Source: an uncultured archaeon (GTDB lineage: Archaea; Nanobdellota; Nanobdellia; Pacearchaeales; GW2011-AR1). From it: DNA of 50,617 bases. Of the stretch, positions 16,181-46,235 are shown in pieces. Within the stretch, counting starts at the first letter, position 1. The number at the start of each line of letters is the position of its first letter. Below the pieces are notes generated by a model that saw only the letters and a program-made list of their open reading frames with translations, was not told where the DNA came from and ran no database searches. The stretch spans positions 1 to 50,617 of the forward strand of contig CAIKMX010000023.1 of assembly GCA_903828655.1 (NCBI GenBank). The letters are read 5' to 3'. The position numbers were made by a program, and so were the translations under genes.

Positions 16181-16255
16181 GGCTCCGTAGCTCAGCCCGG
16201 TTAGAGTACTGGACTTTTAATCCAGGTGTCGCGGGTTCAAATCCCGTCGGAGCCA
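16181..16255 (+). tRNA. tRNA-Lys (anticodon UUU), no intron, CCA not encoded
   Basis: Acceptor GGCTCCG/CGGAGCC, D arm GCTC..GAGT, anticodon arm CTGGA-CTTTTAA-TCCAG, T arm GCGGG-TTCAAAT-CCCGT, discriminator A. Confidence 0.9.
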
Positions 16256-16394: not shown

Positions 16395-16466
16395 CGCAAT
16401 TCTATCATCCAGATATATATATCAAACAACAATAGTTTTTATAAAGCCCAATAATTAAAACAAAAC

Positions 16467-17483
16467 ATGGGTGATGAAGAGAAACCTTTTGATGGTGATA
16501 TTCCTACTATATCTGTTAGAGGCAATAGTCCTGCAGAAGCTTGGGAGAAATCTATACTTGCACTAAACCAGGGCGGAATATGGTATGCCCGAGGCGGTGA
16601 AAAGGACAAGGGCGGAATGCAAGTCGATTCTACAATGATTATTACTATAAAAGATCCCAGAGCAAGACACTTAATTCATAAATTTCCAAAGGTACCTACA
16701 GATAGTTTACTTGAATATGGTTATGAATTCTTGGGCGCAAAAGATGGACTCGTTGTCAATCCAGCTTATGGAGAATCTTTAGAAACGGACACTCGTTGGC
16801 CATATGATTATCATGGAAGACTTGTTGCATGGGGAAAGGACATAGGCCTACCCCCCGTTGATCAGATTGAAGAAGTAATAAACAGACTTGCAAATCATCC
16901 AGATAAAAGAAACGGACAAATGATAACTTGGCAGCCTCCAACAGATCTAGGATCTGCTGATCCCGCATGCATGCAAAGGGTTTGGTGTTTCTTAGTTCCA
17001 ATGCCCGATGGTTCATTTAGATTAAACACAAACTATAGTTTCAGAAGTAGAAATCCAATGACCGCCGCTCCAATGAATCTCTTCGGAGAATCAGTTTTAC
17101 AAGATTATATGGCTGAACAAATCGGCCTAAGAATGGGCAAGGTAGTTACTGCGGGAAGACTAGTAGACATGAGTGATTCCTACCACATCTCGAATCGTGA
17201 TCAACCCTTATTCCAGGATTTTCTAAGAATACATAGAGAAGATTTTGCTGCTGGAAAAACTATTGAAGATAGATCTTACGAGAGGGGTTGGGCATTCGGA
17301 TATATGGAAACAATAACTGAAGAAATAAATGCAAAGATAGCCGGACAAATAAAAGATAGACACGAAGAAAGATTAGTAAGAAATCCAGACAAAAGAGGAA
17401 GACTTGAAGAAGAGTTAGGAACACAAATGGGAAATCTAGGAAAAATACATGATTGGATGACTAAATACATCGCAAAAGGATAA
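16467..17483 (+). CDS. Thymidylate synthase (ThyA)-fold protein, archaeal type, with a C-terminal extension
   Basis: 338 aa. TS-fold landmarks: AWEKSILAL..GG, PYDYHGRL, DQIEEVINRL..HP..R, ITWQPP, DPACMQ (Cys in Pro-x-Cys context), FRSRN, PMN, DSYHISN. Confidence 0.75.
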   Translation: MGDEEKPFDGDIPTISVRGNSPAEAWEKSILALNQGGIWYARGGEKDKGGMQVDSTMIITIKDPRARHLIHKFPKVPTDSLLEYGYEFLGAKDGLVVNPAYGESLETDTRWPYDYHGRLVAWGKDIGLPPVDQIEEVINRLANHPDKRNGQMITWQPPTDLGSADPACMQRVWCFLVPMPDGSFRLNTNYSFRSRNPMTAAPMNLFGESVLQDYMAEQIGLRMGKVVTAGRLVDMSDSYHISNRDQPLFQDFLRIHREDFAAGKTIEDRSYERGWAFGYMETITEEINAKIAGQIKDRHEERLVRNPDKRGRLEEELGTQMGNLGKIHDWMTKYIAKG

Positions 17484-17484
17484 A

Positions 17485-18255
17485 ATGATAAGTAGAATAG
17501 AAATAACAAACAGATTTGGAATAAATGAACTCGACGCAAGACTTAGAAGAGTACAACTAAGAGGATTTCCAAACGTAAGAGCCTATGAAAAGTCCGATAT
17601 TACTATCCAAAGATTCACTCCCACGAGAATCGCATCAGAAGTTTTCACGCCACAACCTTCAGTTTACGCTCCAGAATTAAAAAAGGTAGAAGAAATAGCT
17701 GCATTATTCCAGCAGCAAGGAGTTGACATTTTCAGACTAGACGGTGGAGTTGATTATGTCGCATTTGATGAAAAAGGTGAAGCAACAGAATGGACGGTAG
17801 TCCCTCCAGTAGTTGAAGTTGCAAGAATAAGACACTTAGAAGGAATGGGCCTTGACTTTGATAGTTTCATCGGTCCAGAACTAAGAGCCGTAATGAGAGA
17901 AAAAGGTTACAGGCCAAATCCGGAACTAGGGCAATTAAATCATCCAGAATATCCAAACACCGGAGCAGCTACAGACGTTTTAGAAATTTGCGACGGCTCA
18001 CACAGAATTGAAGTCGCAAGAAGAAGAATAATCAACCAACATGTTTTAGTAATAGGAAACACTGCTCCAGGATTTCCATACTACGCAGCTCCAAAACCTT
18101 ACAGACTAGTTCACGTAGAACAAGTAAGAGACGAAGAAAGGCTCGATAAAACTCACATTCTAACTAACCCTGGACATAAAACTCTCTATAGAGTTTTCCC
18201 AACGGGCGGAATAAAAAGTGGAAATATTAGACCTACAAAAGAGAAGGTGGATTAA
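17485..18255 (+). CDS. ParB/sulfiredoxin-fold domain protein of unknown function
   Basis: 256 aa with VVPPVVEV followed by ICDGSHRIEVARRR (DGxHR core of the ParB/Srx/DndB-type fold). It starts 1 nt after the ThyA-like stop. Confidence 0.6.
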   Translation: MISRIEITNRFGINELDARLRRVQLRGFPNVRAYEKSDITIQRFTPTRIASEVFTPQPSVYAPELKKVEEIAALFQQQGVDIFRLDGGVDYVAFDEKGEATEWTVVPPVVEVARIRHLEGMGLDFDSFIGPELRAVMREKGYRPNPELGQLNHPEYPNTGAATDVLEICDGSHRIEVARRRIINQHVLVIGNTAPGFPYYAAPKPYRLVHVEQVRDEERLDKTHILTNPGHKTLYRVFPTGGIKSGNIRPTKEKVD

Positions 18256-18912
18256 ATGAATTCTCAAATTAGCGTTGTAGGATTAGATCTTGATGGAACG
18301 CTCTATCCTTCAACAGCAGAAACTCAAAAGAGGATTAGAGGAAAGATTTACGAAAAACTTGCAAAATATTTTAAGATCCCGGTACAAACTGCAACAGAAT
18401 TATTCGAACAAGGTTACTCAAGAACTTCCTCAGGTTCACAAACAATCGCAGAGATAGCAACAAATCTTCGGAGACCGTTGCCAAAAGAAGATATAGTTCA
18501 ACGTTCTCTTGAACAAGCAGACATTCTTGATTTAATACAACAAAATCCTGAACTTGCAGAAATGCTAAAAAGAATTTCAAAAAAAAGAAGATTAGATCTT
18601 CTTACCGGCTCAGCAAGAAAACTTGCAATCCAAAAATTAGAAAAAATAGGAATTTCTCAAGACACGTTCAACACTCTTTATACAGATGAAGATGGTTCAA
18701 AATCAAATGGAGATTTGTACAGAAAGTGGACAAGAGATACAAAAAAACCAAGAGACCAACATCTCTACGTCGGAGATAACAAGAAAACAGACATTGATGT
18801 TCCAAACGGATTAGGAATTAAAACGGCTTTTATTGGAGCATACAGCGCAGCAACAATTCAACTCGCAGGCATTCTAGATTTAGAAGAAGTTTTAATGAGA
18901 CAAAAAGAATAA
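18256..18912 (+). CDS. HAD-superfamily hydrolase (phosphatase-like)
   Basis: Motif I GLDLDGTLY, motif II LLTGS, motifs III/IV K...YVGDNKKTDI. There is no gap to the upstream gene. Confidence 0.8.
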   Translation: MNSQISVVGLDLDGTLYPSTAETQKRIRGKIYEKLAKYFKIPVQTATELFEQGYSRTSSGSQTIAEIATNLRRPLPKEDIVQRSLEQADILDLIQQNPELAEMLKRISKKRRLDLLTGSARKLAIQKLEKIGISQDTFNTLYTDEDGSKSNGDLYRKWTRDTKKPRDQHLYVGDNKKTDIDVPNGLGIKTAFIGAYSAATIQLAGILDLEEVLMRQKE

Positions 18913-18946
18913 AACTACTTTTTTATATTAATTTTATTTTGCTAAA

Positions 18947-18996
18947 TTAGTTTCTTTCGCCCACCAATTCTTTCTTTTCTAAAGAAAGAAGAGTGA
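18947..18996 (+). repeat. Repeat module A, ending 2 nt from the nrdJ stop codon
   Basis: TTAGTTTCTTTCGCCCACCAATTCTTTCTTTTCTAAAGAAAGAAGAGTGA, containing a 10-bp hairpin TTCTTTCTTT/AAAGAAAGAA. Confidence 0.8.
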
Positions 18997-18998
18997 AA

Positions 18999-21947
18999 CT
19001 ACCCGCCGCCACACTCACCCTTAATTTCTTGTTTACAACTTCCAGTACATCTCTTATCGCACTTTCCTGATTTGACTAAAGCACCGCCACAAACCTTACA
19101 AACACCAATTACCCCTTCCATTTTAGGAGAATCTGAATTGGACGCTCCGTTAGTCCCATTTTGCGTCGCCTGGTCATGCACATCACTAACATCATCATGA
19201 TGATTTTTTCCATTCTTTTTTCCCTCAACAAAATGATCTCCTATCCAATGGAATATATAATCAATTACTGAAGTCGCATCGTTAATAGTTTCAAATCCTT
19301 CTTCTAAGGATCCGCGATCTTTTGAATTGTTAGTCCATCCTTGAGGATCAAACTTTTGGAATCTAAACTTAGATACTAAGTCCTCTAAAGGAACACCATA
19401 CTGCAAGTTCAAACTAATTGACGTTCCAAACGCATCCATAACTCCTCCCATAAAACCTCCTTCCTTAGACATACTTACAAAAAGCTCTCCAGGAGTACCA
19501 TCATCATAAAGCCCGACGTGAATATAACCCTCATGACCTGCCACATCAAACTTATGCCTTATAGTAGATGCAGTTTGAGGAAGCTTTCTTCGATAAGGTT
19601 TACCAACAACTCCTTGCGCACCCCCTACTTTTCCTTCAAGGCCCTTTACATCTTTTTGTTCCTTTGTATTAAGAGGCTGTATCTTTTTACTATTATTTCT
19701 ATAGATTGCAACTGCCTTTAAACCCATTCTCCATCCGTCCATGTAGATATCTGAAATTTCCTTCACAGTAGTTTCTTCAGGAACATTAACCGTCTTAGAA
19801 ATGGCCCCAGACAAAAATGGTTGGGCAGCCTGCATCATTCTCAAATGCCCCTTGTAGTGTATACTTCTTTTTCCATTATCTGGTTTGAAAGAGCAATCAA
19901 AAACTGGAAGATGTTCCTCCCTCAGATGTGGAGCACCCTCGATAGTTCCTGTTTTCTGCATATGTTCAATCATAGAATCCACCTGAGCAGGAGTATACCC
20001 CAGGGTACTAAGAGCTAGAGGAACAGTTTGATTAACAAGTTTCATTCCTCCTCCTCCAACAAGTTGTTTATATTTAATCAATGCAATATCCGGCTCTATT
20101 CCAGTAGTATCACAATCCATAAAGAATCCTATAGTTCCTGTAGGAGCAAGAACTGTTGACTGAGCATTTCTAAATCCAACCTTCGCCCCTTCAGAAACAA
20201 CATAACTCCAATTTTCCGCAACAACTCTCTTAAGATCTTTGTTAACGCCAAGCCTAGAGTCATCTATTCCCCCGACAGCATCCTTATGCATAACCATTAC
20301 TTCAAGCATTGATTTTTTATTTTCTTCAAATCGATTAAAAGTTCCAAGATGTCTAGCAATGTCAATAGATGCTTTGTAAGCCTCCGAGGTCAAAAGGGCA
20401 GTCACAGCCGAACCAACTGCCCTTGCTTCATCAGAGTCATAAGGTAAACCTAAAGACATCACTAAAGCACCAAGATTACCATACCCCAAACCAAGAGGAC
20501 GGAACTCGTGAGAATTTAGAGCAACCTTTCGAGAAGGATAACTCCCTGCATCAACAAGAATATCCTGCGCAATGATAAATGTTCTCGCAGCCCTGGCCAT
20601 TCTCCCATGATCTATTCTTCCATCTGGAAGTCTAAACTTCATCAAGTTTAGCGAAGCAAGATTACAAGCTGAATCGTTCAAGAACATATATTCCGAGCAA
20701 GGATTAGAAGCCATAATCTCTCCAGAAGTCTTACAAGTATGCCATCTGTTTATTGTAGTATGATACTGCATTCCAGGATCGCCGCACAAATGAGCCGCTG
20801 CGGCGATAGCGTCCATCATATCTGGAGCAGGCCAGTGAGGCATCACATCTGCTAAATCCTTGCTATGAACGGGAGTAGTCTGCCACTCTTTCTTTTCTTC
20901 AACAGCTTTCATAAATTCATCAGTCGCTCTAACAGAAAGATTTGCATTCTGCAAACCAACAGAAGAATAAGCTTCACCACCAAAACTACCATCAACACCA
21001 CCAGCAATAAGTATATGCGCAAGTTCCTCCTGCCTTTTCTTAGCACCAATAAATTTCATTATATCTGGATGAGAGGTAAGCAAACTGAACATTTCTGCAG
21101 CTCTTCTTGTTTTCCCTCCAGATTTAACAACACCCCCAATAACATCATAAATATTAAGAAAAGACATAGGCCCCGAAGGATTTCCTCCCCCCTCAAGTCT
21201 TTCATGCGAACTTCTTAAGGGCGAAAGATCAATACCAGAACCAGAACCCCCCTTAAACAACATTGCCTGCTCTTTAGCAACATCCATTATTCTGTCCATA
21301 CTGTCCTCTTCACCTAAAATAAAACACGCAGAAGGTTGAGGGAACTCATACGACTCTCCTCTCTCCATCTCAACAACTTTTTCAAGTTTGTTATCCCATC
21401 TATAATGTCCCCTGCTTCCAGAACGAACACCATACTCATGAAATATCCCCGCATTAAACAACGTGGGAGAATTAAAACATCCGACTTGATTAACCATCAA
21501 AACTTCAACATCATCTCTAAATCTATCAGCATCTTCCTGTGTTGCAAAATATCCCATTTCTTGTCCCCTCTGAGAAATAAACTTGGCAACTCTTCCAACA
21601 ACTTGCTTTAATGAACGCTCTCTTTCTTGAGGCTTATCAACATCCCCATAAAAATATTTTCCTGCAAGAACGTTAGTTGCATTCAAGCTCCATGAAGCTG
21701 GAACCTCCACATCTTTTTGCTCTACTTTACGTTCCTCCTCTCCTCTATGAAATGTTGCAGTTCTTAATTCATATTCAAGAGGACTTCCATCAGTATAATT
21801 TGTATGAAAAGGATCCTGCCCATCTCTAGAAAAAAGTCTATCCCATTTCATCCCTCTTCTTTCCGCAGCCCCAGTAGGCATTATCGCCCCGCCACCAGCA
21901 CCCGAACTTGTAGGATAAGCATCTCCAACACCATCACCGGTTACCAT
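18999..21947 (-). CDS. nrdJ: Ribonucleotide reductase, class II (adenosylcobalamin-dependent) type
   Basis: 982 aa. Active-site block NPCSEYMFLNDSACNLASLNL, N-terminal WSLNATNVLAGKYFYG, and a Cys-rich C-terminal tail CKVCGG...CDKRCTGSC. Confidence 0.85.
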   Translation of the reverse strand: MVTGDGVGDAYPTSSGAGGGAIMPTGAAERRGMKWDRLFSRDGQDPFHTNYTDGSPLEYELRTATFHRGEEERKVEQKDVEVPASWSLNATNVLAGKYFYGDVDKPQERERSLKQVVGRVAKFISQRGQEMGYFATQEDADRFRDDVEVLMVNQVGCFNSPTLFNAGIFHEYGVRSGSRGHYRWDNKLEKVVEMERGESYEFPQPSACFILGEEDSMDRIMDVAKEQAMLFKGGSGSGIDLSPLRSSHERLEGGGNPSGPMSFLNIYDVIGGVVKSGGKTRRAAEMFSLLTSHPDIMKFIGAKKRQEELAHILIAGGVDGSFGGEAYSSVGLQNANLSVRATDEFMKAVEEKKEWQTTPVHSKDLADVMPHWPAPDMMDAIAAAAHLCGDPGMQYHTTINRWHTCKTSGEIMASNPCSEYMFLNDSACNLASLNLMKFRLPDGRIDHGRMARAARTFIIAQDILVDAGSYPSRKVALNSHEFRPLGLGYGNLGALVMSLGLPYDSDEARAVGSAVTALLTSEAYKASIDIARHLGTFNRFEENKKSMLEVMVMHKDAVGGIDDSRLGVNKDLKRVVAENWSYVVSEGAKVGFRNAQSTVLAPTGTIGFFMDCDTTGIEPDIALIKYKQLVGGGGMKLVNQTVPLALSTLGYTPAQVDSMIEHMQKTGTIEGAPHLREEHLPVFDCSFKPDNGKRSIHYKGHLRMMQAAQPFLSGAISKTVNVPEETTVKEISDIYMDGWRMGLKAVAIYRNNSKKIQPLNTKEQKDVKGLEGKVGGAQGVVGKPYRRKLPQTASTIRHKFDVAGHEGYIHVGLYDDGTPGELFVSMSKEGGFMGGVMDAFGTSISLNLQYGVPLEDLVSKFRFQKFDPQGWTNNSKDRGSLEEGFETINDATSVIDYIFHWIGDHFVEGKKNGKNHHDDVSDVHDQATQNGTNGASNSDSPKMEGVIGVCKVCGGALVKSGKCDKRCTGSCKQEIKGECGGG

Positions 21948-21953
21948 ATTTTA

Positions 21954-22394
21954 CTATTTCAACTCCTTTAATTCTTTTTTAAAATCCTCAATGTCTGCGA
22001 ACTCTCTATACACACTTGCGAACCTTATGTATGCAATCTTATCAACCATTTTTAGTTTTGCCATCACAATTTCCCCAATTTTATCTGAAGCTATCTCCTT
22101 ATCTTTTGCAACCCTATGAATCTTAGCTTCAACCTCCGAAACAACCTGATCAATCTTCTCAACACTCACGGGCCTCTTTTCAAATGCTTTTTCAACGCCT
22201 ACCTTAAGTTTATCGCGATCAAACTTTTGTCTGCGTCCGTCTTTTTTAACAACAGTCAAATCAAACTCAACTCGCTCATATGTTGTAAACCTTTTTTCGC
22301 ACTTTAAGCACTCTCTTCTACGTCTTGTAACGCCTTCGCTATCACGTTTATCAGTAACTTTCGTCTCAGCATGACCGCAGTATGGACATAGCAT
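21954..22394 (-). CDS. nrdR: NrdR transcriptional repressor (zinc ribbon + ATP-cone)
   Basis: MLCPYCGHAETKVTDKRDSEGVTRRRRECLKCEKRFTTYERVE is the canonical NrdR N-terminus. The protein is 146 aa and ends 6 nt upstream of nrdJ. Confidence 0.9.
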   Translation of the reverse strand: MLCPYCGHAETKVTDKRDSEGVTRRRRECLKCEKRFTTYERVEFDLTVVKKDGRRQKFDRDKLKVGVEKAFEKRPVSVEKIDQVVSEVEAKIHRVAKDKEIASDKIGEIVMAKLKMVDKIAYIRFASVYREFADIEDFKKELKELK

Positions 22395-22795: not shown

Positions 22796-23632
22796 CTAAT
22801 CACACTCTCTAAAACTTTCAAATATCTTGCAAGCATTGCAAACATTTCCTGTAGAGGGCTCACCACAAACATCACACTTCTTTATCTCAAATCCTTCTTC
22901 TGCTCTCTTGCTTCTTAGCTTAGGCGCAATCTTTTGAAAGTTATTAACAATCTTTAGCTTTTGTTTAGCAGATAAATCCAGGGCTTTCAACCACGCCCTT
23001 GTATCAGTTCTATAAGTTTCAAAGGCACAAGGACATTTATCATAATTTATTTTAAATTTCTTTTTCAAAGAATAACTTCTAATCTCTTCTTCAGGAATGA
23101 AGAACAACGGCTTAACTCTCTGAACAAAGCCAATTTGTTTAACTCCCGTAGACGGCGCAGAATTAGCTCCAAGTAAAATATTTCCCTTAAGAAAGTTCAT
23201 CAAAACATTTTGAACCTCATCATCAAGGTTATGGCCCGTAACTAACACGTCAGCCCCAAGCTTCTTAGCATATTTATTTAATATCCACCTCTTAATAATT
23301 CCACAAACAGTACATCCCGTAAGATTTTTCTTTTTCTTCAGAACAGCCTTGATAAAACAAATCCCTTGCCCAAGCTCTTTCTTCAGATCTACTATATGCA
23401 ACTTAACACGAAGATTAGAACAAAACTCTACCATATTCTTCAAGTGAAGTTTACTCCACTCCCCAAGATGCAAATCAATCATCAATCCCTCAACGTTATA
23501 TCCAAGCTTGTGCAATATATACAATACGGAAGTAGAATCCTTTCCACCAGATAAGGCTACAAAAACTCTATCTTCCTTGCTAAAAAGTTTATACTTCACA
23601 ATTGTCTCGGATACTTTCTTCTCAATGTCCAT
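22796..23632 (-). CDS. PP-loop ATP pyrophosphatase, TtuA/NcsA/TtcA-like tRNA thiolation enzyme
   Basis: SGGKDS PP-loop, CTVCGIIKR...VTGHNLDDEVQNVLMNFLKG, and C-terminal Cys pairs CPCA and CDVCGEPSTGNVCNAC. Confidence 0.8.
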   Translation of the reverse strand: MDIEKKVSETIVKYKLFSKEDRVFVALSGGKDSTSVLYILHKLGYNVEGLMIDLHLGEWSKLHLKNMVEFCSNLRVKLHIVDLKKELGQGICFIKAVLKKKKNLTGCTVCGIIKRWILNKYAKKLGADVLVTGHNLDDEVQNVLMNFLKGNILLGANSAPSTGVKQIGFVQRVKPLFFIPEEEIRSYSLKKKFKINYDKCPCAFETYRTDTRAWLKALDLSAKQKLKIVNNFQKIAPKLRSKRAEEGFEIKKCDVCGEPSTGNVCNACKIFESFRECD

Positions 23633-25850: not shown

Positions 25851-27050
25851 TTACACCGCCAGCGGTTTCTCTAAATATTCTATTTCCTCGTCAGAGATTT
25901 TAAGCCTTTTACGAATATCATCGCCCTTCAAAAGAATTCTAATCATAAGCCAGTCTTTCATTGCTTGTTTTGTTGAAATATGTGTATGCTTTGCAAACTT
26001 CTCACATATAGTTTTCTTTTTTTTCGCGCGTTGATTCTGCAACCAGATTTTTAAAATTCTCGTTGGTTTCTTATAAGAGGTCCATCCCGCACGATTATAT
26101 TTTTTAACCCCCGCAATTCCCCCACTTAAAAAAAAGTTTTCATAAACCAAAAACCTCCAGTGTCTCTGCCTCATAATCCTCCCACGGAAAACATCTGCCT
26201 TACTTAATGCCTCAAAAGCCTTAAACAGCTCCTCTCCTTTATACTCCGTAGGAATATTTTCCTCAACCCATAAAAATATTTCATCGATAGGCATATTCAC
26301 CTCATCATATATTTTAGTCATCTTATCATCAATCTTTGAATTCTTGAATACATACTGCAATGCAGCAAAGATACTTTGTTCTTTATTTCTCTCTCCAATC
26401 TCCCTTATAAGCTGCGGAGAGTCCATTTTAGAAAGTATCTGCAAGTCATTTAACGCTGCCCTTATATCTCCCCTAGCCTTTATCGCAATACTTGTTAGTA
26501 TATCTCTAGAAACAACAATATTCTCTTTTCTGCAGATATCATCCATCAAGGTTAAAACAACCTTATAATCCACATCTTTCAATTGAACCATCTCCGCCTT
26601 TTGTCTAAGCAATCCAAACTTCTGCTGCCATATATCGTTTGCAGTGATAATAACCGGAAAAGCAGTCTTCTCAATTACAACTAACAATTCTCCCAATCCT
26701 CCTCGGTCAGAACCAGAAATCCCATCGACTTCATCAACGAGAATTATTTTGTTCTTTCTAAATAAACTTCTTTGTTGCGAAGCAGGCCCAATTATTTCAG
26801 CAATCTTTTGCTTATCTCTTAAGTCAGATGCATTCAATTCCAATATCTCCGCATCCATCTCAAATGCAATTGCATAAGCAAGTGAAGTTTTACCCGTTCC
26901 CGGCCCACCATAAAGAATTACAGACTTCTTCTTTGGAAAACTTCTCAAGAATAGTTTAACCTTGTCTATCGCAAGCTCCTGTCCTTTCACGTCAGCAAAA
27001 CAGCTCGCCCTATGTTTCTCACACCAAGGCATGTTTTCTTGATTTATCAT
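25851..27050 (-). CDS. rfcL: Replication factor C large subunit
   Basis: MPWCEKHR..F.DV.GQ, Walker A GGPGTGKTS, and DEVD. 399 aa. Confidence 0.88.
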   Translation of the reverse strand: MINQENMPWCEKHRASCFADVKGQELAIDKVKLFLRSFPKKKSVILYGGPGTGKTSLAYAIAFEMDAEILELNASDLRDKQKIAEIIGPASQQRSLFRKNKIILVDEVDGISGSDRGGLGELLVVIEKTAFPVIITANDIWQQKFGLLRQKAEMVQLKDVDYKVVLTLMDDICRKENIVVSRDILTSIAIKARGDIRAALNDLQILSKMDSPQLIREIGERNKEQSIFAALQYVFKNSKIDDKMTKIYDEVNMPIDEIFLWVEENIPTEYKGEELFKAFEALSKADVFRGRIMRQRHWRFLVYENFFLSGGIAGVKKYNRAGWTSYKKPTRILKIWLQNQRAKKKKTICEKFAKHTHISTKQAMKDWLMIRILLKGDDIRKRLKISDEEIEYLEKPLAV

Positions 27051-27409
27051 CTTCGTTCATCTCCATCCACACCAACACGAGCATAGCTTTCAAACTGAAT
27101 CGTTGGATCTTTAGGATCAAAAACTTCTACAACTTCATAAAACCCAAAAGTAGTGGGCTTTCCCTTGAATAATTGGTGAGTATATTCACAAATTACAATA
27201 CTTGCCAAAGGTCTGGATAATCTTTGCCTACCTTTTGTTTCTAAAAGAGGAACCTCTCCCTCTAACCAATAATTTCTTTGTCCAGATTTCATAAACTCAT
27301 AACTCCTTCCTTTTTCTAATTTTTCTGGAAGACACTCATTATCCATACGACCACGAGTTCCAAAAACTCTTAAGGCTAAATCAGGATTAAACTCTACAGA
27401 AATTCCCAT
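27047..27409 (-). CDS. Hypothetical 120-aa protein embedded between rfcS and rfcL
   Basis: Starts 2 nt after the rfcS stop and its stop overlaps the rfcL ATG (ATGA). I recognise no motif. Confidence 0.5.
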   Translation of the reverse strand: MGISVEFNPDLALRVFGTRGRMDNECLPEKLEKGRSYEFMKSGQRNYWLEGEVPLLETKGRQRLSRPLASIVICEYTHQLFKGKPTTFGFYEVVEVFDPKDPTIQFESYARVGVDGDERR

Positions 27410-27411
27410 CC

Positions 27412-28407
27412 CTACACACCTCCAAGAGTTGTAGACTTTCCTTCCCCCGCCAAAACAAAACTAGCTAATAAAGATTCTAATTGTATAAATTCATCACTTC
27501 CTTCAACTAATCTAAACTCAATCTCTCCTGTCTTCTCTGTTAAACGCACTTTCAAAGAATTATCAATTGGTAACGTCCATATCTCTTTTTGTATAGCTTT
27601 TATAACATCTTGCCCTGAAATAGACTCTTTCAGCATTATATCTAACAACTTGCCTCTAGCCCCATTAAAGTCTCCTGCAAGAGCATAATCTAAAACAATC
27701 TTTATATCACTCGGCTTTGCCCTCGCTACAATCGTATTAATCAAATCAGGAGTTATATTCGGAGATATTGATGAAGTTGCCTGTAATAGGTTTATAACCC
27801 TTCTACAATCGCCCTCCGAGGACTCGTGCAATACATCAAACGCCTCCGGCGTTATAGTTAAACCCTCATTTCTAGCAATTAAATCAATTCTTCTCTTAAT
27901 ATCTTTCTTTTCCAAAAGCTGAAATCTAAAAACTACACATCTAGATTGAATCGGATCTAAAATCTTAGAAGAATAGTTACAGGACAAAATAAATCTACAT
28001 GTAGAAGTATAATTCTCCATAGTTCTTCTTAATGCCTGTTGTGCCTCTCTCGTAAGAGCATCTGCCTCATCTAAGAATATAACTTTGAAAGGAACATTCC
28101 CTATAGCCTTAGTTCTAGCGAAGTCTTTAACTTTTTGTCTTACAACATCAATTCCTCTCTCATCAGAAGCATTCAATTCCAAGTAGTTTTCTCTCCAAGA
28201 CTCTCCAAAAAGCTGATGAACAACAATTAAAGCAAGAGTAGACTTCCCCGTTCCAGCAGGTCCAGCAAACAATAAATGGGGGATATTATTTGAATTAGTA
28301 AGAGCTTTCACTCTCTTAAGAACTTCCTCTTGCCCAACCATATCTTCAAATTTCTTAGGCCTATACCTCTCGGTCCACACCTCAGAATTAAACTCACCAT
28401 CTGCCAT
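27412..28407 (-). CDS. rfcS: Replication factor C small subunit
   Basis: WTERYRPKKFEDMVGQ, GPAGTGKST, DEAD and SRC motifs. 331 aa with no intein. Confidence 0.92.
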   Translation of the reverse strand: MADGEFNSEVWTERYRPKKFEDMVGQEEVLKRVKALTNSNNIPHLLFAGPAGTGKSTLALIVVHQLFGESWRENYLELNASDERGIDVVRQKVKDFARTKAIGNVPFKVIFLDEADALTREAQQALRRTMENYTSTCRFILSCNYSSKILDPIQSRCVVFRFQLLEKKDIKRRIDLIARNEGLTITPEAFDVLHESSEGDCRRVINLLQATSSISPNITPDLINTIVARAKPSDIKIVLDYALAGDFNGARGKLLDIMLKESISGQDVIKAIQKEIWTLPIDNSLKVRLTEKTGEIEFRLVEGSDEFIQLESLLASFVLAGEGKSTTLGGV

Positions 28408-36216: not shown

Positions 36217-37083
36217 TCACATCTGCTCTTCATACATATTCTGTCTCATTATTTCTCTATTAACCTCTTCTTTCTTGAACAAATCTCTGAATGGCAGCAA
36301 TCTATCAAAAAATCCTCTTGGCTTTTCTGGCGTTCCGCATAAAGCAGAAGCAAAATTTCTTATTTCATGAGAAATAACATTACCTTCATCATGAATCGTC
36401 ATAGGCTCTTTATGATAAGTTGCCGCAGCAATTTTATCATGATCTTTTATTCTTGCAACAACAGGAATTCCAGAAGCTTTTTCTATTTCATCCAAATCCA
36501 TCTCGTGTTTAGGACTTCTTATTCTATTTACAATAATTCCCGCAACAGGCGTTTGCTGTTGCCTCGCAATCTTTGCAGCCTTCAAGGAAGTAATAAGTGT
36601 CGGTTCATCAGGAGTCGTAACAACAAATACCTTATCAGCAGCCGCAATTATTGGTTTCATCTCCTCATAATTTGGTGAAGAATCAAGTATTATAAAATCA
36701 TACCTATACCTCATTTTATTCAAAATCTTCTCGAGTCTATAAACGTCAATATCGTTCTTATACTCTTGAGCAGCAGGAACTACATCAAATCCATGAGACT
36801 CATAAATAGCATTGTGCAATCCAACACCAAAAAGTGCGTCATGTAATGTAACATCGTACCTATCTTTATCCGTTAAATCAAGATAAAGCCCAATAGTCGG
36901 AGCAGAAAAGTTTCCATCAACCAATAAAACTCGCTTCCCAAAATGATTAGCAAGTGAAGACGCAGTTTCAATTGCAAGTGTCGTTTTACCGACGCCCCCC
37001 TTTATAGAAACAAACGCAAGGATAGGAGCTTTTTTTACACTTTTTACACTCTCTTTTTCATCAAATTCCTGAATATAATTCAT
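36217..37083 (-). CDS. ParA/MinD-family P-loop ATPase
   Basis: Deviant Walker A SIKGGVGKTT and the DG..S..T region. 288 aa. Confidence 0.85.
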   Translation of the reverse strand: MNYIQEFDEKESVKSVKKAPILAFVSIKGGVGKTTLAIETASSLANHFGKRVLLVDGNFSAPTIGLYLDLTDKDRYDVTLHDALFGVGLHNAIYESHGFDVVPAAQEYKNDIDVYRLEKILNKMRYRYDFIILDSSPNYEEMKPIIAAADKVFVVTTPDEPTLITSLKAAKIARQQQTPVAGIIVNRIRSPKHEMDLDEIEKASGIPVVARIKDHDKIAAATYHKEPMTIHDEGNVISHEIRNFASALCGTPEKPRGFFDRLLPFRDLFKKEEVNREIMRQNMYEEQM

Positions 37084-39479: not shown

Positions 39480-39598
39480 CGCCCATGACAGGATTTGAAC
39501 CTGCGACCCCTGACTTTCTTTGTTCTACGAACGAAGAACGAGCGAACTCGCTTCGCACTTAGAAGGCCAGTGCTCTATCCAGGCTGAGCTACACGGGC
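39480..39598 (-). tRNA. tRNA-Arg (anticodon UCU) with a 44-nt intron at the canonical 37/38 position
   Basis: Minus-strand read: GCCCGTG-TA-GCTC-AGCCTGGATA-GAGC-A-CTGGC-CTTCTAA-[GTGCGAAGCGAGTTCGCTCGTTCTTCGTTCGTAGAACAAAGAAA]-GTCAG-GGGTC-GCAGG-TTCAAAT-CCTGT-CATGGGC-G. Confidence 0.85.
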
Positions 39599-45800: not shown

Positions 45801-46235
45801 TCTCTTAAGGATTTCCTTCTTTCTCTCCTCCTCCCCCTTATGAGCCTCTAATTCCCTATGAAGCTTATTTAATTCCGAATGCAACAAATCCATTTCCTTC
45901 TCATAAGCTTTATTTTTAACGCTAACATGTTTTTTATTCTCAATCTCTTCTTTTAATGCCCTTATTTTCTTATCTACTTCAAGTTTAACATTAACAGTTT
46001 TCCTATGTTTTGGTTTATATCTTCCAGAAATTTTAGCTTTTAGAATTTTAAGCTCTCTCTCAATAATAGGAATATCAGAAACACTCTTTAATCTCGAACG
46101 AATCACTGACGCCTCAGCTTCATGCCCTCTAACGTTCAGCCCATTCAACTCTACCTTTAATTCCTCAAGTCTCTGAACGCCCTTACTAAAGATTTCAAAG
46201 TCCTTCCTCAAACTAGATTCAGCAGTTTTCACCAT
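42813..46235 (-). CDS. 1140-aa Glu/Lys-rich coiled-coil protein with 3-4 long internal tandem repeats
   Basis: No TM segment or NTPase motif is seen. Repeated blocks include KKSAEEHEALNKK[LI]AEEE..F.K.L.E.EE (four copies) and MSMMKILEKKK.LG.KEMLLKRRV.K.LEEQ (three copies). Confidence 0.8.
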   Translation of the reverse strand: MVKTAESSLRKDFEIFSKGVQRLEELKVELNGLNVRGHEAEASVIRSRLKSVSDIPIIERELKILKAKISGRYKPKHRKTVNVKLEVDKKIRALKEEIENKKHVSVKNKAYEKEMDLLHSELNKLHRELEAHKGEEERKKEILKRIDPSVNLLTNEAFDMSLNDIKIALSDKIKNKESMIQKQLHEDLISNEKIFNEKYRALEQKYHEDYENRVETTLKKDVERRFKSLLDKALKDQKVKLTKEETTILRHRAEKEFEDAKVALKKRMVQELTDERKKLRQKFDEESLLHKNELHERFEKEIALEVARLNKLHYNREKQLNEQVDREIREAHKVKREAEENSRKKNERLNEIVLQKKREIEEQIQKRLSELEKEKLEVRKKSAAEHNALNKKLAEEERGFRRELFEKEEILRKKIMEKENEVRKNSDSIKLREDAQKKLKKALKEKEKELEMHIVSVKERAERIKKQAEEEARKISSHKEKELEERIKKTKARIENEKEEAKKKFASEHEILERKLAVEEKEFKKKLLEEEKELERKKSEEEKKMREGLSNEESKIRAEFLKKQIEMKKGLSSQEKDSKEKEKAFMEKLSKEERIAKEDLARKEQKMMKALEIEKKKEHILKKMSMMKILEKKKNLGLKEMLLKRRVKKILEEQARLKRASKEKEIELERRMALEIEDARRVKAGAEREAQKVISHRINELEEQVKRKVEELQKEKLEARKKSAEEHEALSIKLAEEEREFRKSLAEKEEALRESFAEREEGLRKDLSVREKEMMRDFVAMKKHEEVHERTSMRKIIEQKKNLILKENLLKKKVKKMLDDQEKLKTDLREKEKELNSKVAKEIDEAQNIKKEAEEEARKKGDKMDKVVLGRKKALHEEVQKKINELEKRREEIRKKSAEEHEALNKKIAEEEKTFKKKLAEGEEHLKKKLAEKEQAMMKSAEIRKMREQAHKKAVEREMIRAVKMRERREDARERMSMMKILEKKKSLGFKEMLLKRRVQKMLEEQEKLKKVLKEKEKEIEGTVAQEKGEFDKMKQKHNEAYLFLKNSLKEDYDRKKKEVDNKVEELGFKETALRAKLEAEKEAQIRRELGERAIKLKEELREEYKDKLKTEMKKKEAELDAKKVALEQEIQRKAKMLFN

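What the first reader, a model, noticed from the sequence alone, without database searches (positions are those of the whole stretch)
16467..18912. Tightly coupled ThyA-fold / ParB-Srx-fold / HAD-phosphatase operon of unclear pathway
Three plus-strand genes with 1-nt and 0-nt gaps:
- A thymidylate-synthase-fold protein with the catalytic-type Cys (DPACMQ), FRSRN and PMN motifs, plus an about 90-aa C-terminal extension.
- A 256-aa protein with the ParB/sulfiredoxin DGxHR core (ICDGSHRIEVARRR).
- A HAD phosphatase (DLDGT).

The operon is visibly more G+C- and Arg-rich than its surroundings. It converges on nrdJ-nrdR, so the whole 16.4-22.5 kb region concerns deoxynucleotide supply.

A ParB/Srx-fold protein inside a metabolic operon is unusual. 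This fold is known to act as a small-molecule kinase (ADP-dependent serine kinase SerK of Thermococcus), as CTPase/NTPase switches, and as partners in DNA-modification systems (DndB, DpdB).

The combination could be a salvage route (kinase, methylase, phosphatase) or a pyrimidine/DNA base-modification module. I do not recognise it as a described pathway.
Basis: partly seen in the sequence, partly recalled or inferred. Interest (0 to 1): 0.65.

Follow-up and report, generated by a model that had tools for sequence, protein, structure and literature searches.

The report
Conserved thymidylate synthase, ParB-like, phosphatase module
Three tightly packed genes (an unusual thymidylate synthase, a sulfiredoxin/ParB-fold protein of unknown function and a HAD phosphatase) form a module that recurs in every related DPANN archaeon checked and in some bacteria. 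It is almost certainly about making the DNA base T, by a variant route that I found described nowhere.

Summary
**Observation.** It holds. Three + strand genes lie at 16467-18912 with 1-nt and 0-nt gaps, and every quoted motif is present. The G+C claim is marginal.

**Not a chance neighbourhood.**
- All 26 species-representative DPANN loci with the ParB-like gene also carry the TS-like gene. All but one contig-truncated locus also carry the HAD gene, on the same strand.
- The wider ParB-like family (Pfam PF24392, ~200 aa, no assigned function) sits near a TS-like, HAD or dCMP deaminase gene in 34 of 42 sequence clusters, bacteria included.
- One protein fuses the ParB-like domain to dCMP deaminase.
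- The family is absent from the plasmid, phage and defence libraries searched, and has no HTH or ParA partner.
- A model of a bacterial member matches sulfiredoxin, SerK, SbnI and ParB.

**New finding.** The TS residue that binds the folate pterin (E. coli Asp169) is Asn in 43 of 44 module-linked enzymes. It is Asp in all 13 relatives found by similarity; the five checked lack the module.

**Best reading (about 0.35).** A housekeeping dTMP-supply module:
- The ParB-like enzyme and HAD set the phosphate level of dC/dU nucleotides that feed dCMP deaminase and a non-canonical ThyA.

**Rivals.** Salvage kinase, nucleotide-sensing activator, or synthesis of a C5-modified dUMP.

**Novelty.** I found no description of this module.

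The parts
16181..16255 (+). tRNA-Lys(UUU), immediately upstream of the module. It marks the 5' boundary and is not part of the module's function.
   Evidence: Rfam tRNA at 71.4 bits; ARAGORN.
16425..16466 (+). Probable archaeal promoter region. A TTTTTATAAAG box lies about 30 nt before the TS start codon.
   Evidence: Read directly from the sequence. Inference only; it is an AT-rich genome.
16467..17483 (+). Archaeal-type ThyA-fold enzyme, 338 aa. The TS core spans residues 16-246, followed by a C-terminal extension of about 90 aa.
   Evidence: Pfam PF00303 at 2e-9; TIGR03283 at 86.8 bits, below its 174.55 cut-off. A family profile against PDB gives ThyA as best hit at 1e-10.
16959..16976 (+). 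DPACMQ. Cys168 is the catalytic nucleophile (E. coli C146). Asp165 is at the E. coli L143 position.
   Evidence: Cys168 is invariant in 31 homologues. In the profile alignment, PPC aligns with L. casei PPC.
17040..17054 (+). FRSRN. Arg193 corresponds to E. coli R166, the phosphate ligand. Asn196 occupies the position of E. coli Asp169, the pterin ligand.
   Evidence: Alignments. This position is Asn in 43 of 44 ParB-CE-linked TS genes and Asp in 13 of 13 relatives found by similarity; the five checked are unlinked.
17070..17078 (+). PMN. Asn204 corresponds to E. coli N177, the determinant of uracil specificity.
   Evidence: Invariant in the family; alignments.
17485..18255 (+). ParB-CE protein, 256 aa. 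It has a sulfiredoxin/ParB-type nucleotide-binding core with N- and C-terminal additions and a lineage-specific insert at about residues 113-165.
   Evidence: Pfam PF24392 at 2e-15. 90 homologues, all about 255 aa and all from DPANN MAGs where a source names them. AF2 model with pLDDT 92. A bacterial family member's model matches Srx, SerK, SbnI and ParB.
17986..18027 (+). ICDGSHRIEVARRR. This is the DGxHR phosphate-binding motif on a strand-helix-strand unit. Ser172 sits where sulfiredoxin has its catalytic Cys and where ParB has the Glu of GERR.
   Evidence: D170, G171 and R174 are invariant; S172 and H173 are at least 90% conserved. Secondary structure E162-170, H172-180, E185-191.
18256..18912 (+). 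HAD-IA phosphatase, 218 aa, with all four catalytic motifs: DLDGT 11-15, LLTGS 115-119, Lys149, GDNKKTD 173-179.
   Evidence: Pfam HAD_2 at 1.2e-9. Nearest NCBIfam models are TIGR02253 and pyrimidine 5'-nucleotidases, all below their cut-offs. Motif positions.
18913..18998 (.). Convergent intergenic spacer with oligo-T runs. It probably acts as a terminator for both the module and nrdJ.
   Evidence: Read from the sequence. Inference only.
18999..22394 (-). nrdJ (class II ribonucleotide reductase with a TSCPD domain) and nrdR. These form the functional context, supplying deoxynucleotides.
   Evidence: Pfam Ribonuc_red_lgC at 2.5e-125, Ribonuc_red_2_N, TSCPD; ATP-cone plus Zn_ribbon_NrdR.

Best explanation
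The three genes are a housekeeping thymidylate-supply module.

**Step 1, inferred.** The class II reductase next door makes deoxycytidine and deoxyuridine nucleotides as di- or triphosphates.

**Step 2, inferred.** This is the least certain step.
- The ParB-CE protein is a sulfiredoxin/SerK-like enzyme that binds a nucleoside triphosphate through its DGSHR motif.
- Together with the HAD phosphatase it sets the phosphate level of these pyrimidine deoxynucleotides.
- Most simply, the pair strips dCTP/dCDP (and dUTP/dUDP) down to the monophosphate.
- That is the job done in phage T4 by the dCTPase-dUTPase gp56.

**Step 3, supported by gene linkage and one fusion.** dCMP deaminase, encoded elsewhere in this genome and next to the module in many others, converts dCMP to dUMP.

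**Step 4, supported by active-site residues.**
- The ThyA-fold enzyme attacks C6 of dUMP with Cys168.
- It holds the uracil with Asn204 and adds the one-carbon unit at C5 to give dTMP.
- It lacks the Asp that canonical ThyA uses to hold the folate pterin and open the methylene bridge (Asn196 instead).
- It therefore probably handles its one-carbon donor or reductant differently from textbook ThyA.
For: **Co-conservation**
- 26 of 26 GTDB-representative DPANN loci with the ParB-CE gene have the TS-like gene adjacent on the same strand. 25 also have HAD; the exception, L008, is cut by the contig end.
- Further loci show the same arrangement.
- Pairwise identities of the three proteins co-vary across 27 loci, rho 0.67-0.82.

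**Link to pyrimidine deoxynucleotides beyond DPANN**
- 34 of 42 ParB-CE clusters (60% identity) have a TS-like, HAD or dCMP deaminase gene within 2.5 kb.
- A Gaiellaceae locus reads TS-HAD-ParB-CE.
- L168 reads TS, then HAD, then a ParB-CE::dCMP deaminase fusion.
- dCMP deaminase, dUTPase and nrdD/G/R or nrdJ/R flank the module.

**The TS looks active on dUMP**
- Cys, Arg and Asn204 are invariant.
- Its closest Asp-type relatives are stand-alone genes in housekeeping contexts, next to dUTPase or mutL-miaA.

**ParB-CE has a nucleotide-binding ParB/Srx core**
- Foldseek gives human sulfiredoxin with ATP at E 7e-4, probability 1.0, followed by SbnI, SerK, Noc and ParB-CDP.
- The DGxHR motif is invariant.

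**HAD is catalytically complete**
- All four motifs are present. Its nearest models are pyrimidine nucleotidases, though below their cut-offs.

**Not a mobile, phage or defence element**
- No hits in plasmids, phages, PADLOC or PHROGs.
Against: - No activity was measured, and the roles of ParB-CE and HAD are inferred only from fold and neighbourhood.
- The ParB-type catalytic Glu (GERR) is missing. The closest folds (Srx, SerK, SbnI) are phosphotransferases, not hydrolases, which favours a kinase.
- HAD enzymes usually cleave monoesters, not NDPs.
- A canonical dUTPase co-occurs near the module in L001, so the module does not simply replace Dut.
- Asn at the Asp169 position is a strong warning sign. 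In E. coli and L. casei ThyA, as I recall from the literature on PDB 1DNA, this change blocks opening of the methylene-folate ring. In phage ThyA homologues the same change marks flavin-dependent C5 hydroxylases (PMC13326640).
- So the product, or at least the cofactor, may not be the textbook one. ParB-CE and HAD might serve the cofactor rather than the substrate.
- Whether these genomes have another TS (thyX or thyA) could not be checked.
- One large bacterial ParB-CE lineage (35 loci) is almost never next to TS, HAD or the deaminase: one TS-like gene within 2.5 kb in the 35 loci.
Confidence: 0.35

Rival explanations
1. **Salvage or activation kinase.** ParB-CE is an NTP- or ADP-dependent kinase, like SerK and SbnI but for a deoxynucleoside or dNMP (dC/dU/dT to the monophosphate, or dTMP to dTDP). 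HAD is a 5'-nucleotidase that forms a pool-controlling substrate cycle with it around the TS.
For: - The closest solved folds are phosphotransferases: sulfiredoxin, SbnI and SerK.
- The family shares Srx's G-x-H-R and lacks ParB's hydrolytic Glu.
- The conserved C-terminal part is rich in aromatic and basic residues (PYYAxP, W, KKxYR, FRDFN, R). That would suit a second, phosphate-bearing nucleotide.
- DPANN archaea live on salvaged nucleotides (general knowledge).
- HAD resembles pyrimidine 5'-nucleotidases, weakly.
Against: - A kinase and a phosphatase translationally coupled in one operon look futile unless they act on different substrates.
- No sequence similarity to SerK or SbnI at E up to 10.
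- No catalytic base has been identified.
Confidence: 0.2
2. **Nucleotide-sensing partner.** ParB-CE is not an enzyme. It is an NTP-binding switch, sensing for example dCTP or dTTP, that activates or gates the TS and dCMP deaminase. The precedent is a ParB-like protein that activates a phage thymine dioxygenase.
For: - The ParB fold is best known as a CTP switch. A ParB-like activator of a pyrimidine-C5 enzyme has been shown (PMC13229309).
- The fold binds CTP, ATP or GTP in different families (PMC12704722).
- Fusion to dCMP deaminase, an allosterically controlled enzyme.
- ParB-CE is the most conserved of the three proteins, at 45% mean identity against 31% for TS.
Against: - The family has no dimerisation or clamp domains.
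- This reading gives no role to the equally conserved HAD.
- The many invariant polar residues (Q, E, D, H, R, K, R, R) look more like an active site.
Confidence: 0.15
3. **Non-canonical pyrimidine nucleotide.** The Asn-type ThyA homologue makes a C5-modified dUMP (5-hydroxy- or 5-hydroxymethyl-dUMP) rather than dTMP. ParB-CE is its dedicated kinase. HAD removes the competing canonical nucleotide. This mirrors the phage toolkits that replace T or C in DNA.
For: - D169N is proposed as diagnostic of flavin-dependent 5-hydroxy-dCMP synthases among phage ThyA homologues (PMC13326640).
- The E. coli L143 position is Asp165 here, the 'not-methyl' signature in that paper.
- The set of dCMP deaminase, TS homologue, kinase-like protein and phosphatase matches phage T-replacement pathways such as SPO1 and PBS2 (from memory).
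- One ParB-CE lineage sits next to an HhH-GPD glycosylase-like gene.
Against: - The module is chromosomal and lies in housekeeping loci of very small genomes. It is absent from phages, plasmids and defence models.
- No glycosyltransferase, NDK, polymerase or restriction partner is nearby.
- Asn204 is kept, so the substrate is uracil, unlike the phage enzymes.
- Asp at the L143 position is also found in the stand-alone housekeeping relative P0107 (EDPPCLQ).
- Flavin hydroxylation needs O2, yet one module sits beside the strictly anaerobic reductase nrdD-nrdG.
Confidence: 0.15
4. **Sulfiredoxin-like repair.** ParB-CE uses ATP to repair an over-oxidised catalytic cysteine of the TS, or a zinc-ligand cysteine of the deaminase.
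For: The best structural match is sulfiredoxin bound to ATP. TS depends on a reactive Cys. Thioredoxin or glutaredoxin genes flank two loci.
Against: - Srx's catalytic Cys is Ser or Met in this family.
- The hosts are mostly anaerobes.
- HAD has no role in this reading.
- This is pure analogy.
Confidence: 0.04
5. **Ordinary chromosome or plasmid partition ParB.** The gene merely happens to lie next to metabolic genes.
For: Only the DGxHR motif and the fold.
Against: - No HTH: HTH_39 at E 0.15, 12.4 bits against a 21.3 cut-off.
- No ParA-like ORF in 161 loci.
- GERR Glu absent.
- No PF24392-family member found in 72,556 plasmids.
- Strict linkage to TS and HAD.
Confidence: 0.01

Closest known systems
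Archaeal-type thymidylate synthase (NCBIfam TIGR03283, methanogen ThyA) and its stand-alone bacterial relatives
   Same: - Full-length match to the model (residues 16-246 onto positions 2-198 of 201).
- The catalytic Cys, the phosphate-binding Arg and the uracil-specifying Asn are present.
- 33-44% identity to stand-alone TS genes that lie next to dUTPase or mutL-miaA.
   Different: - The score is half the equivalog cut-off (86.8 against 174.55).
- Asn replaces the pterin-binding Asp (FRSRN against FRSRD/FRSND).
- It has a C-terminal extension of about 90 aa.
- It is always coupled to ParB-CE, and to HAD in every complete DPANN locus.
- A sister form in other loci adds an MtrA-like N-domain and a PF14251 pterin-binding C-domain.
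Sulfiredoxin (Srx)
   Same: It is the best structural match to the family core (3cyi, E 7e-4, TM 0.52 on the Srx side). It shares the PP(I/V)xV strand and the G-x-H-R phosphate-binding motif, and it is a small ATP-using enzyme without a DNA-binding domain.
   Different: - The catalytic Cys of GCHR is Ser172 here and Met in bacteria.
- ParB-CE is twice the size, with extra N- and C-terminal elements.
- There is no peroxiredoxin partner, and the context is dTMP synthesis.
Free serine kinases SerK (Thermococcus) and SbnI (Staphylococcus)
   Same: These are ParB/Srx-fold small-molecule kinases of about 240-250 aa that work in metabolism. They share fold-level similarity with the family (6nr6 at E 0.013; 5x0e at E 0.026).
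   Different: No detectable sequence similarity. The neighbours differ: there are no cysteine- or siderophore-pathway genes. The acceptor substrate is unknown.
ParB/Noc/KorB/PadC CTP-dependent switches
   Same: They have the same N-terminal nucleotide-binding fold. A Gln lies in a Box I-like position (LxPxQxY); I compared that motif by eye only.
   Different: ParB-CE has no HTH, no dimerisation domain, no ParA and no hydrolytic Glu in GERR, and it is not found on plasmids. The 2025 survey of the fold started from PF02195 and mentions neither this family nor any TS or deaminase link (PMC12704722).
Phage T4 dCTPase-dUTPase (gp56) + dCMP deaminase + thymidylate synthase
   Same: The proposed logic is the same: strip RNR products to monophosphates, deaminate, then methylate (comparison from memory).
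   Different: The proteins doing the first step are unrelated (an all-alpha NTP pyrophosphatase in T4, as I recall). The T4 genes are viral; here the module is cellular and chromosomal.
Phage D169N ThyA homologues (5-hydroxy-dCMP synthases of RB69, DLP3 and others)
   Same: They have the same Asp-to-Asn replacement at the pterin site, and an acidic residue at the L143 position (PMC13326640).
   Different: - The phage enzymes carry N177D (cytosine specificity), need O2 and FMN, and sit in glycosylation clusters.
- This enzyme keeps Asn177, belongs to a different, archaeal-type branch, and occurs in anaerobes.

Membership tests
ThyA thymidylate synthase (PF00303) | Profile match above the curated cut-off | tested here: met
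   37.4 bits against 24.3. The family profile finds ThyA structures at 1e-10.
ThyA thymidylate synthase (PF00303) | Catalytic Cys (E. coli C146), phosphate-binding Arg (R166, R126'/R127') and Asn177 for dUMP | tested here: met
   C168, R193 and N204 are invariant; R148 is at least 90% conserved.
ThyA thymidylate synthase (PF00303) | Asp169, the ligand of the folate pterin needed to open methylene-THF | tested here: not met
   Asn196. It is Asn in 43 of 44 module-linked homologues.
ThyA thymidylate synthase (PF00303) | dUMP to dTMP activity | not testable with these tools
   Needs an enzyme assay or thyA complementation.
Archaeal TS equivalog TIGR03283 | Score at or above the equivalog cut-off of 174.55 | tested here: not met
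   86.8 bits for the window protein; 82.7-118.9 bits for other module-linked TS genes.
ParB/Srx superfamily | ParB/Srx fold of the core | tested here: met
   - Model of the bacterial family member P0258 (pLDDT 93): nearly all of the top 36 PDB hits are Srx, ParB, Noc, PadC, SbnI, SerK or related; best hit E 7e-4.
- The window protein's own model (pLDDT 92) gave no PDB hit below E 0.3, and only weak ParB/Srx hits in BFVD (E 0.05, probability 0.93).
- So membership rests on the family, on Pfam PF24392 (57.5 bits against 23) and on the shared motifs.
ParB/Srx superfamily | Phosphate-binding G-x-x-R / DGxHR motif on a strand-helix unit | tested here: met
   DGSHR at residues 170-174; D, G and R invariant.
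Partition ParB (ParABS) | HTH DNA-binding domain and C-terminal dimerisation domain | tested here: not met
   No such Pfam domain. HTH_39 scores E 0.15, below its cut-off.
Partition ParB (ParABS) | Adjacent ParA ATPase | tested here: not met
   No deviant Walker A ORF in 161 loci. The nearest in the window lies 18 kb away.
Partition ParB (ParABS) | Hydrolytic Glu in GERR | tested here: not met
   Ser172, or Met in bacteria, occupies that position. I aligned the motif by eye.
Sulfiredoxin | Catalytic Cys in F-G-G-C-H-R | tested here: not met
   C-D-G-S-H-R in the window, N-D-G-M-H-R in bacteria.
SerK/SbnI free serine kinase | Sequence homology to SerK or SbnI | tested here: not met
   No PDB sequence hit at E up to 10, with either the single sequence or two profiles. 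Only fold-level similarity.
SerK/SbnI free serine kinase | Catalytic base and serine pocket | not tested
   No residue-level structural alignment was available.
HAD phosphatase superfamily | Motifs I-IV (DxDxT, S/T, K, GDxxxD) | tested here: met
   DLDGT 11-15, LLTGS 115-119, K149, GDNKKTD 173-179. HAD_2 and Hydrolase score above their cut-offs.
Pyrimidine 5'-nucleotidase families (TIGR01993, YjjG) | Score above the equivalog cut-off | tested here: not met
   45.7 against 142.9, and 22.3 against 159.9. These are nearest neighbours only.
Flavin-dependent 5-hydroxy-dCMP synthase (phage ThyA homologues) | D169N together with N177D | tested here: not met
   D169N is present but N177 stays Asn. Definition taken from PMC13326640.
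Flavin-dependent 5-hydroxy-dCMP synthase (phage ThyA homologues) | FMN binding and O2-dependent hydroxylation | not testable with these tools
   Indirect argument against: the module sits next to nrdD-nrdG in L001.
DndB/DpdB-type DNA-modification partners and defence systems | Match to defence models; dnd/dpd neighbours | tested here: not met
   PADLOC gives no hit for any of the three proteins or for P0258. No such neighbours are seen.

The most novel reading that the evidence does not exclude
The Asn-type ThyA, ParB-CE and HAD together form a previously unrecognised route to the T position of DNA. It would be the only such route in many DPANN archaea and some bacteria.

There are two versions of this reading:
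- A ThyA-fold synthase has given up the canonical folate contact. It depends on a sulfiredoxin-like phosphotransferase and a phosphatase, for example to handle a non-folate or flavin-type cofactor or an unusual substrate form.
- More radically, the module makes a C5-modified deoxyuridylate that replaces thymidine in a cellular genome.
Probability: 0.3. Interest if true: 0.9.

Novelty: new variant of a known kind. Interest (0 to 1): 0.72.

Why it matters
- **A possible third way to make dTMP.** Thymidylate synthesis is one of the best-mapped steps of metabolism, with two known solutions (ThyA and ThyX). Here a ThyA-fold enzyme lacks the residue that canonical ThyA needs to use methylene-folate. 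It is locked to two accessory enzymes in organisms that generally lack folate biosynthesis.
- **What it could explain.** If it is their only TS, it would show how ultra-small symbiotic archaea obtain T.
- **A first functional context for Pfam PF24392.** It would also add a metabolic branch to the ParB/sulfiredoxin fold beside SerK, SbnI and Srx.
- **Directly testable.** Three small soluble proteins, a thyA complementation assay and an N196D swap would suffice.

Tried and rejected
- **Partition ParB.** Rejected: no HTH, no ParA, not on plasmids.
- **Phage or defence module.** No PHROGs or PADLOC hit for ParB-CE. Only 1 of 6 viral-contig pattern hits was real, and it lies on a 287-kb contig.
- **Horizontal transfer suggested by composition.** Rejected: third-position GC is ordinary.
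- **Direct sequence link to SerK, Srx or ParB.**
  - phmmer and two profiles against PDB found nothing.
  - Foldseek of the window protein's own model against PDB found nothing. Only the insert-free bacterial member gave clear hits.
- **The search for related loci with the broad alignments.** It failed because no conserved stretch was long enough. I replaced it with a degenerate DNA pattern, MHR..YPYYA.
- **Literature searches.** 'ParB-CE', 'DUF4346', 'PterinBD' and combinations of ParB, TS, deaminase, HAD and DPANN found no description of the module. I could not establish what 'CE' in the Pfam name means.
- **L143 position as a methyl versus hydroxymethyl marker.** Not informative in this clade: the stand-alone relative P0107 also has Asp there.
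- **Serine kinase plus phosphoserine phosphatase reading of ParB-CE and HAD.** Considered and dropped: no PLP or serine-pathway partner is present.

Full report
**1. The observation**

The window encodes three + strand ORFs at 16467-17483 (338 aa), 17485-18255 (256 aa) and 18256-18912 (218 aa). They are separated by 1 nt and 0 nt. All quoted motifs are present:
- TS: DPACMQ at aa 165-170, FRSRN at 192-196, PMN at 202-204.
- ParB-like protein: ICDGSHRIEVARRR at 168-181.
- HAD: DLDGT at 11-15.

Pfam places the proteins in Thymidylat_synt, Parb-CE (PF24392) and HAD_2, all above their gathering cut-offs.

The archaeal TS model TIGR03283 covers residues 16-246 of the first protein. That leaves a C-terminal extension of about 90 aa. 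The score of 86.8 bits is far below the equivalog cut-off of 174.55.

The module's surroundings:
- Upstream are rpoA'/rpoB/rpoH on the minus strand and a tRNA-Lys.
- Downstream, convergent, are a class II ribonucleotide reductase and nrdR.
- A TATA-like box precedes the first ATG and an oligo-T run follows the last stop (inference only).

The claimed compositional anomaly is weak:
- TS and the ParB-like gene are about 1 SD above the mean gene GC.
- HAD is below the mean, and third-position GC is ordinary.
- Only the Arg/Lys ratio of the ParB-like protein is extreme.

The host is a DPANN-type archaeon. All close homologues of the ParB-like protein that carry a source name come from Nanoarchaeota, Pacearchaeota or Woesearchaeota MAGs.

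**2. The three genes are a conserved unit**

A search with the ParB-like protein found 90 homologues, all about 255 aa.

In one genome per species (GTDB representatives), 26 loci encode it. All 26 have a TS-like gene adjacent on the same strand. All have a HAD gene too, except one locus truncated by its contig end.

Two layouts exist:
- A short TS (300-350 aa) followed by ParB then HAD, as in the window.
- A long TS (480-497 aa) followed by HAD then ParB.

Pairwise identities of the three proteins co-vary across 27 loci (Spearman 0.67-0.82). ParB-CE is the most conserved and TS the least.

**3. The family is wider, and a fourth partner appears**

A profile search of 1.8 billion representative proteins found 284 relatives. 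Most are about 200 aa and lack the 113-165 insert of the DPANN form. They share these motifs: LRxVxLxG, PxQxYVL, LPPIVE, (N/C)DG(M/S)HR, YPYYAxP, KKxYR, YKxLFRDFN. They match the whole PF24392 model.

I fetched their DNA with a degenerate pattern and scored the neighbours with local profiles. Results:
- 111 ParB-CE loci fall into 42 clusters at 60% identity.
- 34 clusters have a TS-like, HAD or dCMP deaminase gene within 2.5 kb.
- The usual bacterial order is dCMP deaminase, HAD, ParB-CE, long TS.
- A Gaiellaceae MAG reads TS, HAD, ParB-CE.
- dCMP deaminase also abuts the module in seven DPANN loci.
- In L168, ParB-CE is fused to dCMP deaminase, directly after a long TS and a HAD gene.

One bacterial lineage (35 loci) has a different conserved context: HhH-GPD protein, small ORF, ParB-CE, SPFH protein, thioredoxin-like protein. 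Because these loci are closely related, this may be mere synteny.

**4. What the ParB-like protein is**

It is not a partition protein:
- No HTH or dimerisation domain.
- No ParA-like ORF in any of 161 loci.
- No family member in 72,556 plasmids or 50,697 phage records.
- No defence or phage family match.

Sequence methods find no solved relative.

Structure evidence:
- The window protein's own model is confident (pLDDT 92). It gave no significant PDB match, and only weak ParB/sulfiredoxin matches among viral models.
- The model of an insert-free bacterial member (pLDDT 93) settles the fold.
  - Its best hits are human sulfiredoxin with ATP (E 7e-4, probability 1.0).
  - Next come Atu1540 and P. 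furiosus 1vk1.
  - Then Noc, SbnI, ParB-CDP, PadC and SerK.

Motif comparison (by eye):
- The DGxHR motif corresponds to Srx's GCHR and ParB's GERR.
- The position of Srx's catalytic Cys, and of ParB's hydrolytic Glu, is Ser172 here and Met in bacteria.

So the protein is a member of the ParB/Srx superfamily with a nucleotide-phosphate site. It is neither a sulfiredoxin, nor a ParB switch of the known kind, nor a detectable SerK orthologue.

The 2025 survey of this fold started from PF02195. It mentions no thymidylate synthase, deaminase or PF24392 (PMC12704722).

**5. What the TS-like protein is**

Features consistent with an active dUMP-binding enzyme:
- The family keeps the nucleophile Cys168 (E. 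coli C146), Arg193 (R166), an Arg of the RR pair, Tyr115 (Y94) and Asn204 (N177, uracil specificity).
- Its best structural-sequence relatives are ordinary ThyA enzymes.

Its nearest stand-alone relatives (33-44% identity) sit in housekeeping contexts, without ParB-CE, HAD or deaminase:
- next to dUTPase (P0096, P0097);
- next to mutL-miaA (P0106, P0107).

There is one sharp difference. The residue aligned with E. coli Asp169 is distributed as follows:
- Asn196 in the window enzyme.
- Asn in 43 of 44 TS genes found beside ParB-CE (one has Ser).
- Asp in all 13 relatives found by similarity alone.
- Of the four Asn-type hits in that same unbiased search, three lie on contigs of the same length as contigs carrying ParB-CE hits.

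What Asp169 does:
- It binds N3 and the 2-amino group of the folate pterin.
- The top PDB sequence hit of the window enzyme is in fact the E. coli D169N mutant chain.
- As I recall from the literature on PDB 1DNA, that mutant fails to open the methylene-folate ring.
- A 2026 study proposes D169N as the diagnostic mark of phage ThyA homologues that have switched from folate to FMN and hydroxylate dCMP (PMC13326640).

How the module-linked enzymes differ from those phage enzymes:
- They keep Asn177.
- They belong to another branch of the family.
- They occur beside the anaerobic reductase nrdD-nrdG in at least one genome, which argues against O2-dependent hydroxylation there.

The long form adds a C-terminal PF14251 pterin-binding domain. 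It also adds an N-terminal domain with a weak MtrA match (E 1e-3). The window's short form has neither.

I take the Asp-to-Asn switch as solid and unexplained. It says the one-carbon donor or reductant is handled differently from textbook ThyA, and that this change travels with ParB-CE and HAD.

**6. The HAD protein**

It has all four catalytic motifs. In both archaea and bacteria its nearest curated models are TIGR02253 and pyrimidine 5'-nucleotidases (YjjG, TIGR01993), all well below their cut-offs. The only solved relatives are uncharacterised. I regard it as an active phosphatase, probably acting on a pyrimidine nucleotide. Its substrate is not shown.

**7. Mechanism**

Shown:
- Linkage of four activities: deaminase, ThyA-fold C5 enzyme, ParB/Srx-fold nucleotide binder and HAD phosphatase.
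- Their association with ribonucleotide reductase loci.
- Chromosomal, non-mobile status.
- An active-site inventory consistent with dUMP as substrate.

Inferred, best reading at about 0.35:
- ParB-CE and HAD bring reductase products (dCTP/dCDP, dUTP/dUDP) to the monophosphate level.
- dCMP deaminase makes dUMP.
- The Asn-type ThyA makes dTMP.
- The fusion of ParB-CE to the deaminase, rather than to the TS, favours a role on the nucleotide substrate over a role on the TS cofactor.

Rivals:
- A salvage or dNMP kinase paired with a nucleotidase (0.2). This is favoured by the Srx/SerK-like active-site type.
- A nucleotide-sensing activator (0.15). The precedent is PMC13229309.
- Synthesis of a C5-modified dUMP with its own kinase and a competitor-removing phosphatase (0.15). 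This is favoured by D169N and by the resemblance to phage T-replacement toolkits, and disfavoured by context, anaerobiosis and Asn177.
- Srx-like cysteine repair (0.04).
- Partition (0.01).

**8. Novelty and verdict**

- The domain family exists in Pfam without a function.
- I found no paper describing the module, the deaminase link or the Asp-to-Asn correlation. The limits are an open-access library and ten searches.
- I class it as a new variant of a known kind: thymidylate supply with new accessory enzymes and a non-canonical ThyA.
- There is roughly a 0.3 chance that it is a truly new route to T, or to a T substitute.
- The decisive tests are a genome census for other TS, tmk and dcd genes, thyA complementation with and without the partners and with N196D, and simple nucleotide assays.

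Interest: 0.72.

Noticed in passing
window 39480-39598 (-): Rfam finds a tRNA match spanning 119 nt (50.9 bits) that ARAGORN does not call. It is probably an intron-containing archaeal tRNA.
   Followed up: no
window 16181-16255 (+): tRNA-Lys(UUU) lies between rpoH and the TS gene. A TTTTTATAAAG box sits about 30 nt before the TS start codon, and an oligo-T run follows the HAD stop.
   Followed up: partly
window 18999-21947 (-): The class II ribonucleotide reductase carries a TSCPD domain and a Cys-rich C-terminal tail (CKVCGG...CDKRCTGSCKQEIKGECGGG).
   Followed up: partly
window 36217-37083 (-): A 288-aa ORF with a deviant Walker A motif (KGGxGK[ST]; MinD/ParA/Mrp-like). It is 18 kb from the ParB-like gene and is not its partner.
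   Followed up: no
window 42813-46235 (-): A 1140-aa ORF with 20% Lys, in a stretch with strong strand skews (AT skew -0.40, GC skew about -0.5).
   Followed up: no
window 25851-28407 (-), 22796-23632 (-): Replication factor C large and small subunit-like AAA+ genes and a PP-loop ATPase. DNA-replication and tRNA-modification genes share the neighbourhood.
   Followed up: partly
L003:5832-7286, L033:2868-4412 and 20 more loci: A long form of the module-linked TS. A weakly MtrA-like N-terminal domain and a C-terminal PF14251 pterin-binding domain (shared with MtrA-like and DHPS-like proteins) flank the TS core. It reads as a TS inserted into an MtrA-like frame.
   Followed up: partly
L168:1876-3264: A single 462-aa protein (P0109) fuses ParB-CE to dCMP deaminase. 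It is preceded by a long Asn-type TS and a HAD gene and followed by thioredoxin.
   Followed up: yes
L033:5672-8347, L112:1161-4718, L156:4627-8184: Proteins of 891-1185 aa with a weak ParB-CE-like domain near the C-terminus lie directly after the small ParB-CE gene in some bacterial modules. The rest of each protein matches no Pfam family.
   Followed up: no
L043-L158 (35 metagenomic loci, e.g. L103:4625-5248): One bacterial lineage of 207-211-aa ParB-CE proteins has a different fixed context: HhH-GPD (endonuclease III-like), small ORF, ParB-CE, SPFH/Band 7, thioredoxin-like. A TS-like gene lies within 2.5 kb in only one of the 35 loci, and no HAD or deaminase gene in any.
   Followed up: partly
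L034:477-2342: A HAD and ParB-CE pair without a TS gene nearby, preceded by a small protein with a PycTM (Pycsar effector-type) Pfam hit.
   Followed up: no
P0141, P0161, P0145, P0199, P0200: Further ParB-CE subfamilies (300-620 aa) carry an insert at the same place as the DPANN form and a different C-terminal motif (HYDW...GL.VS.LR). Two have an unknown N-terminal region of about 320 aa.
   Followed up: no
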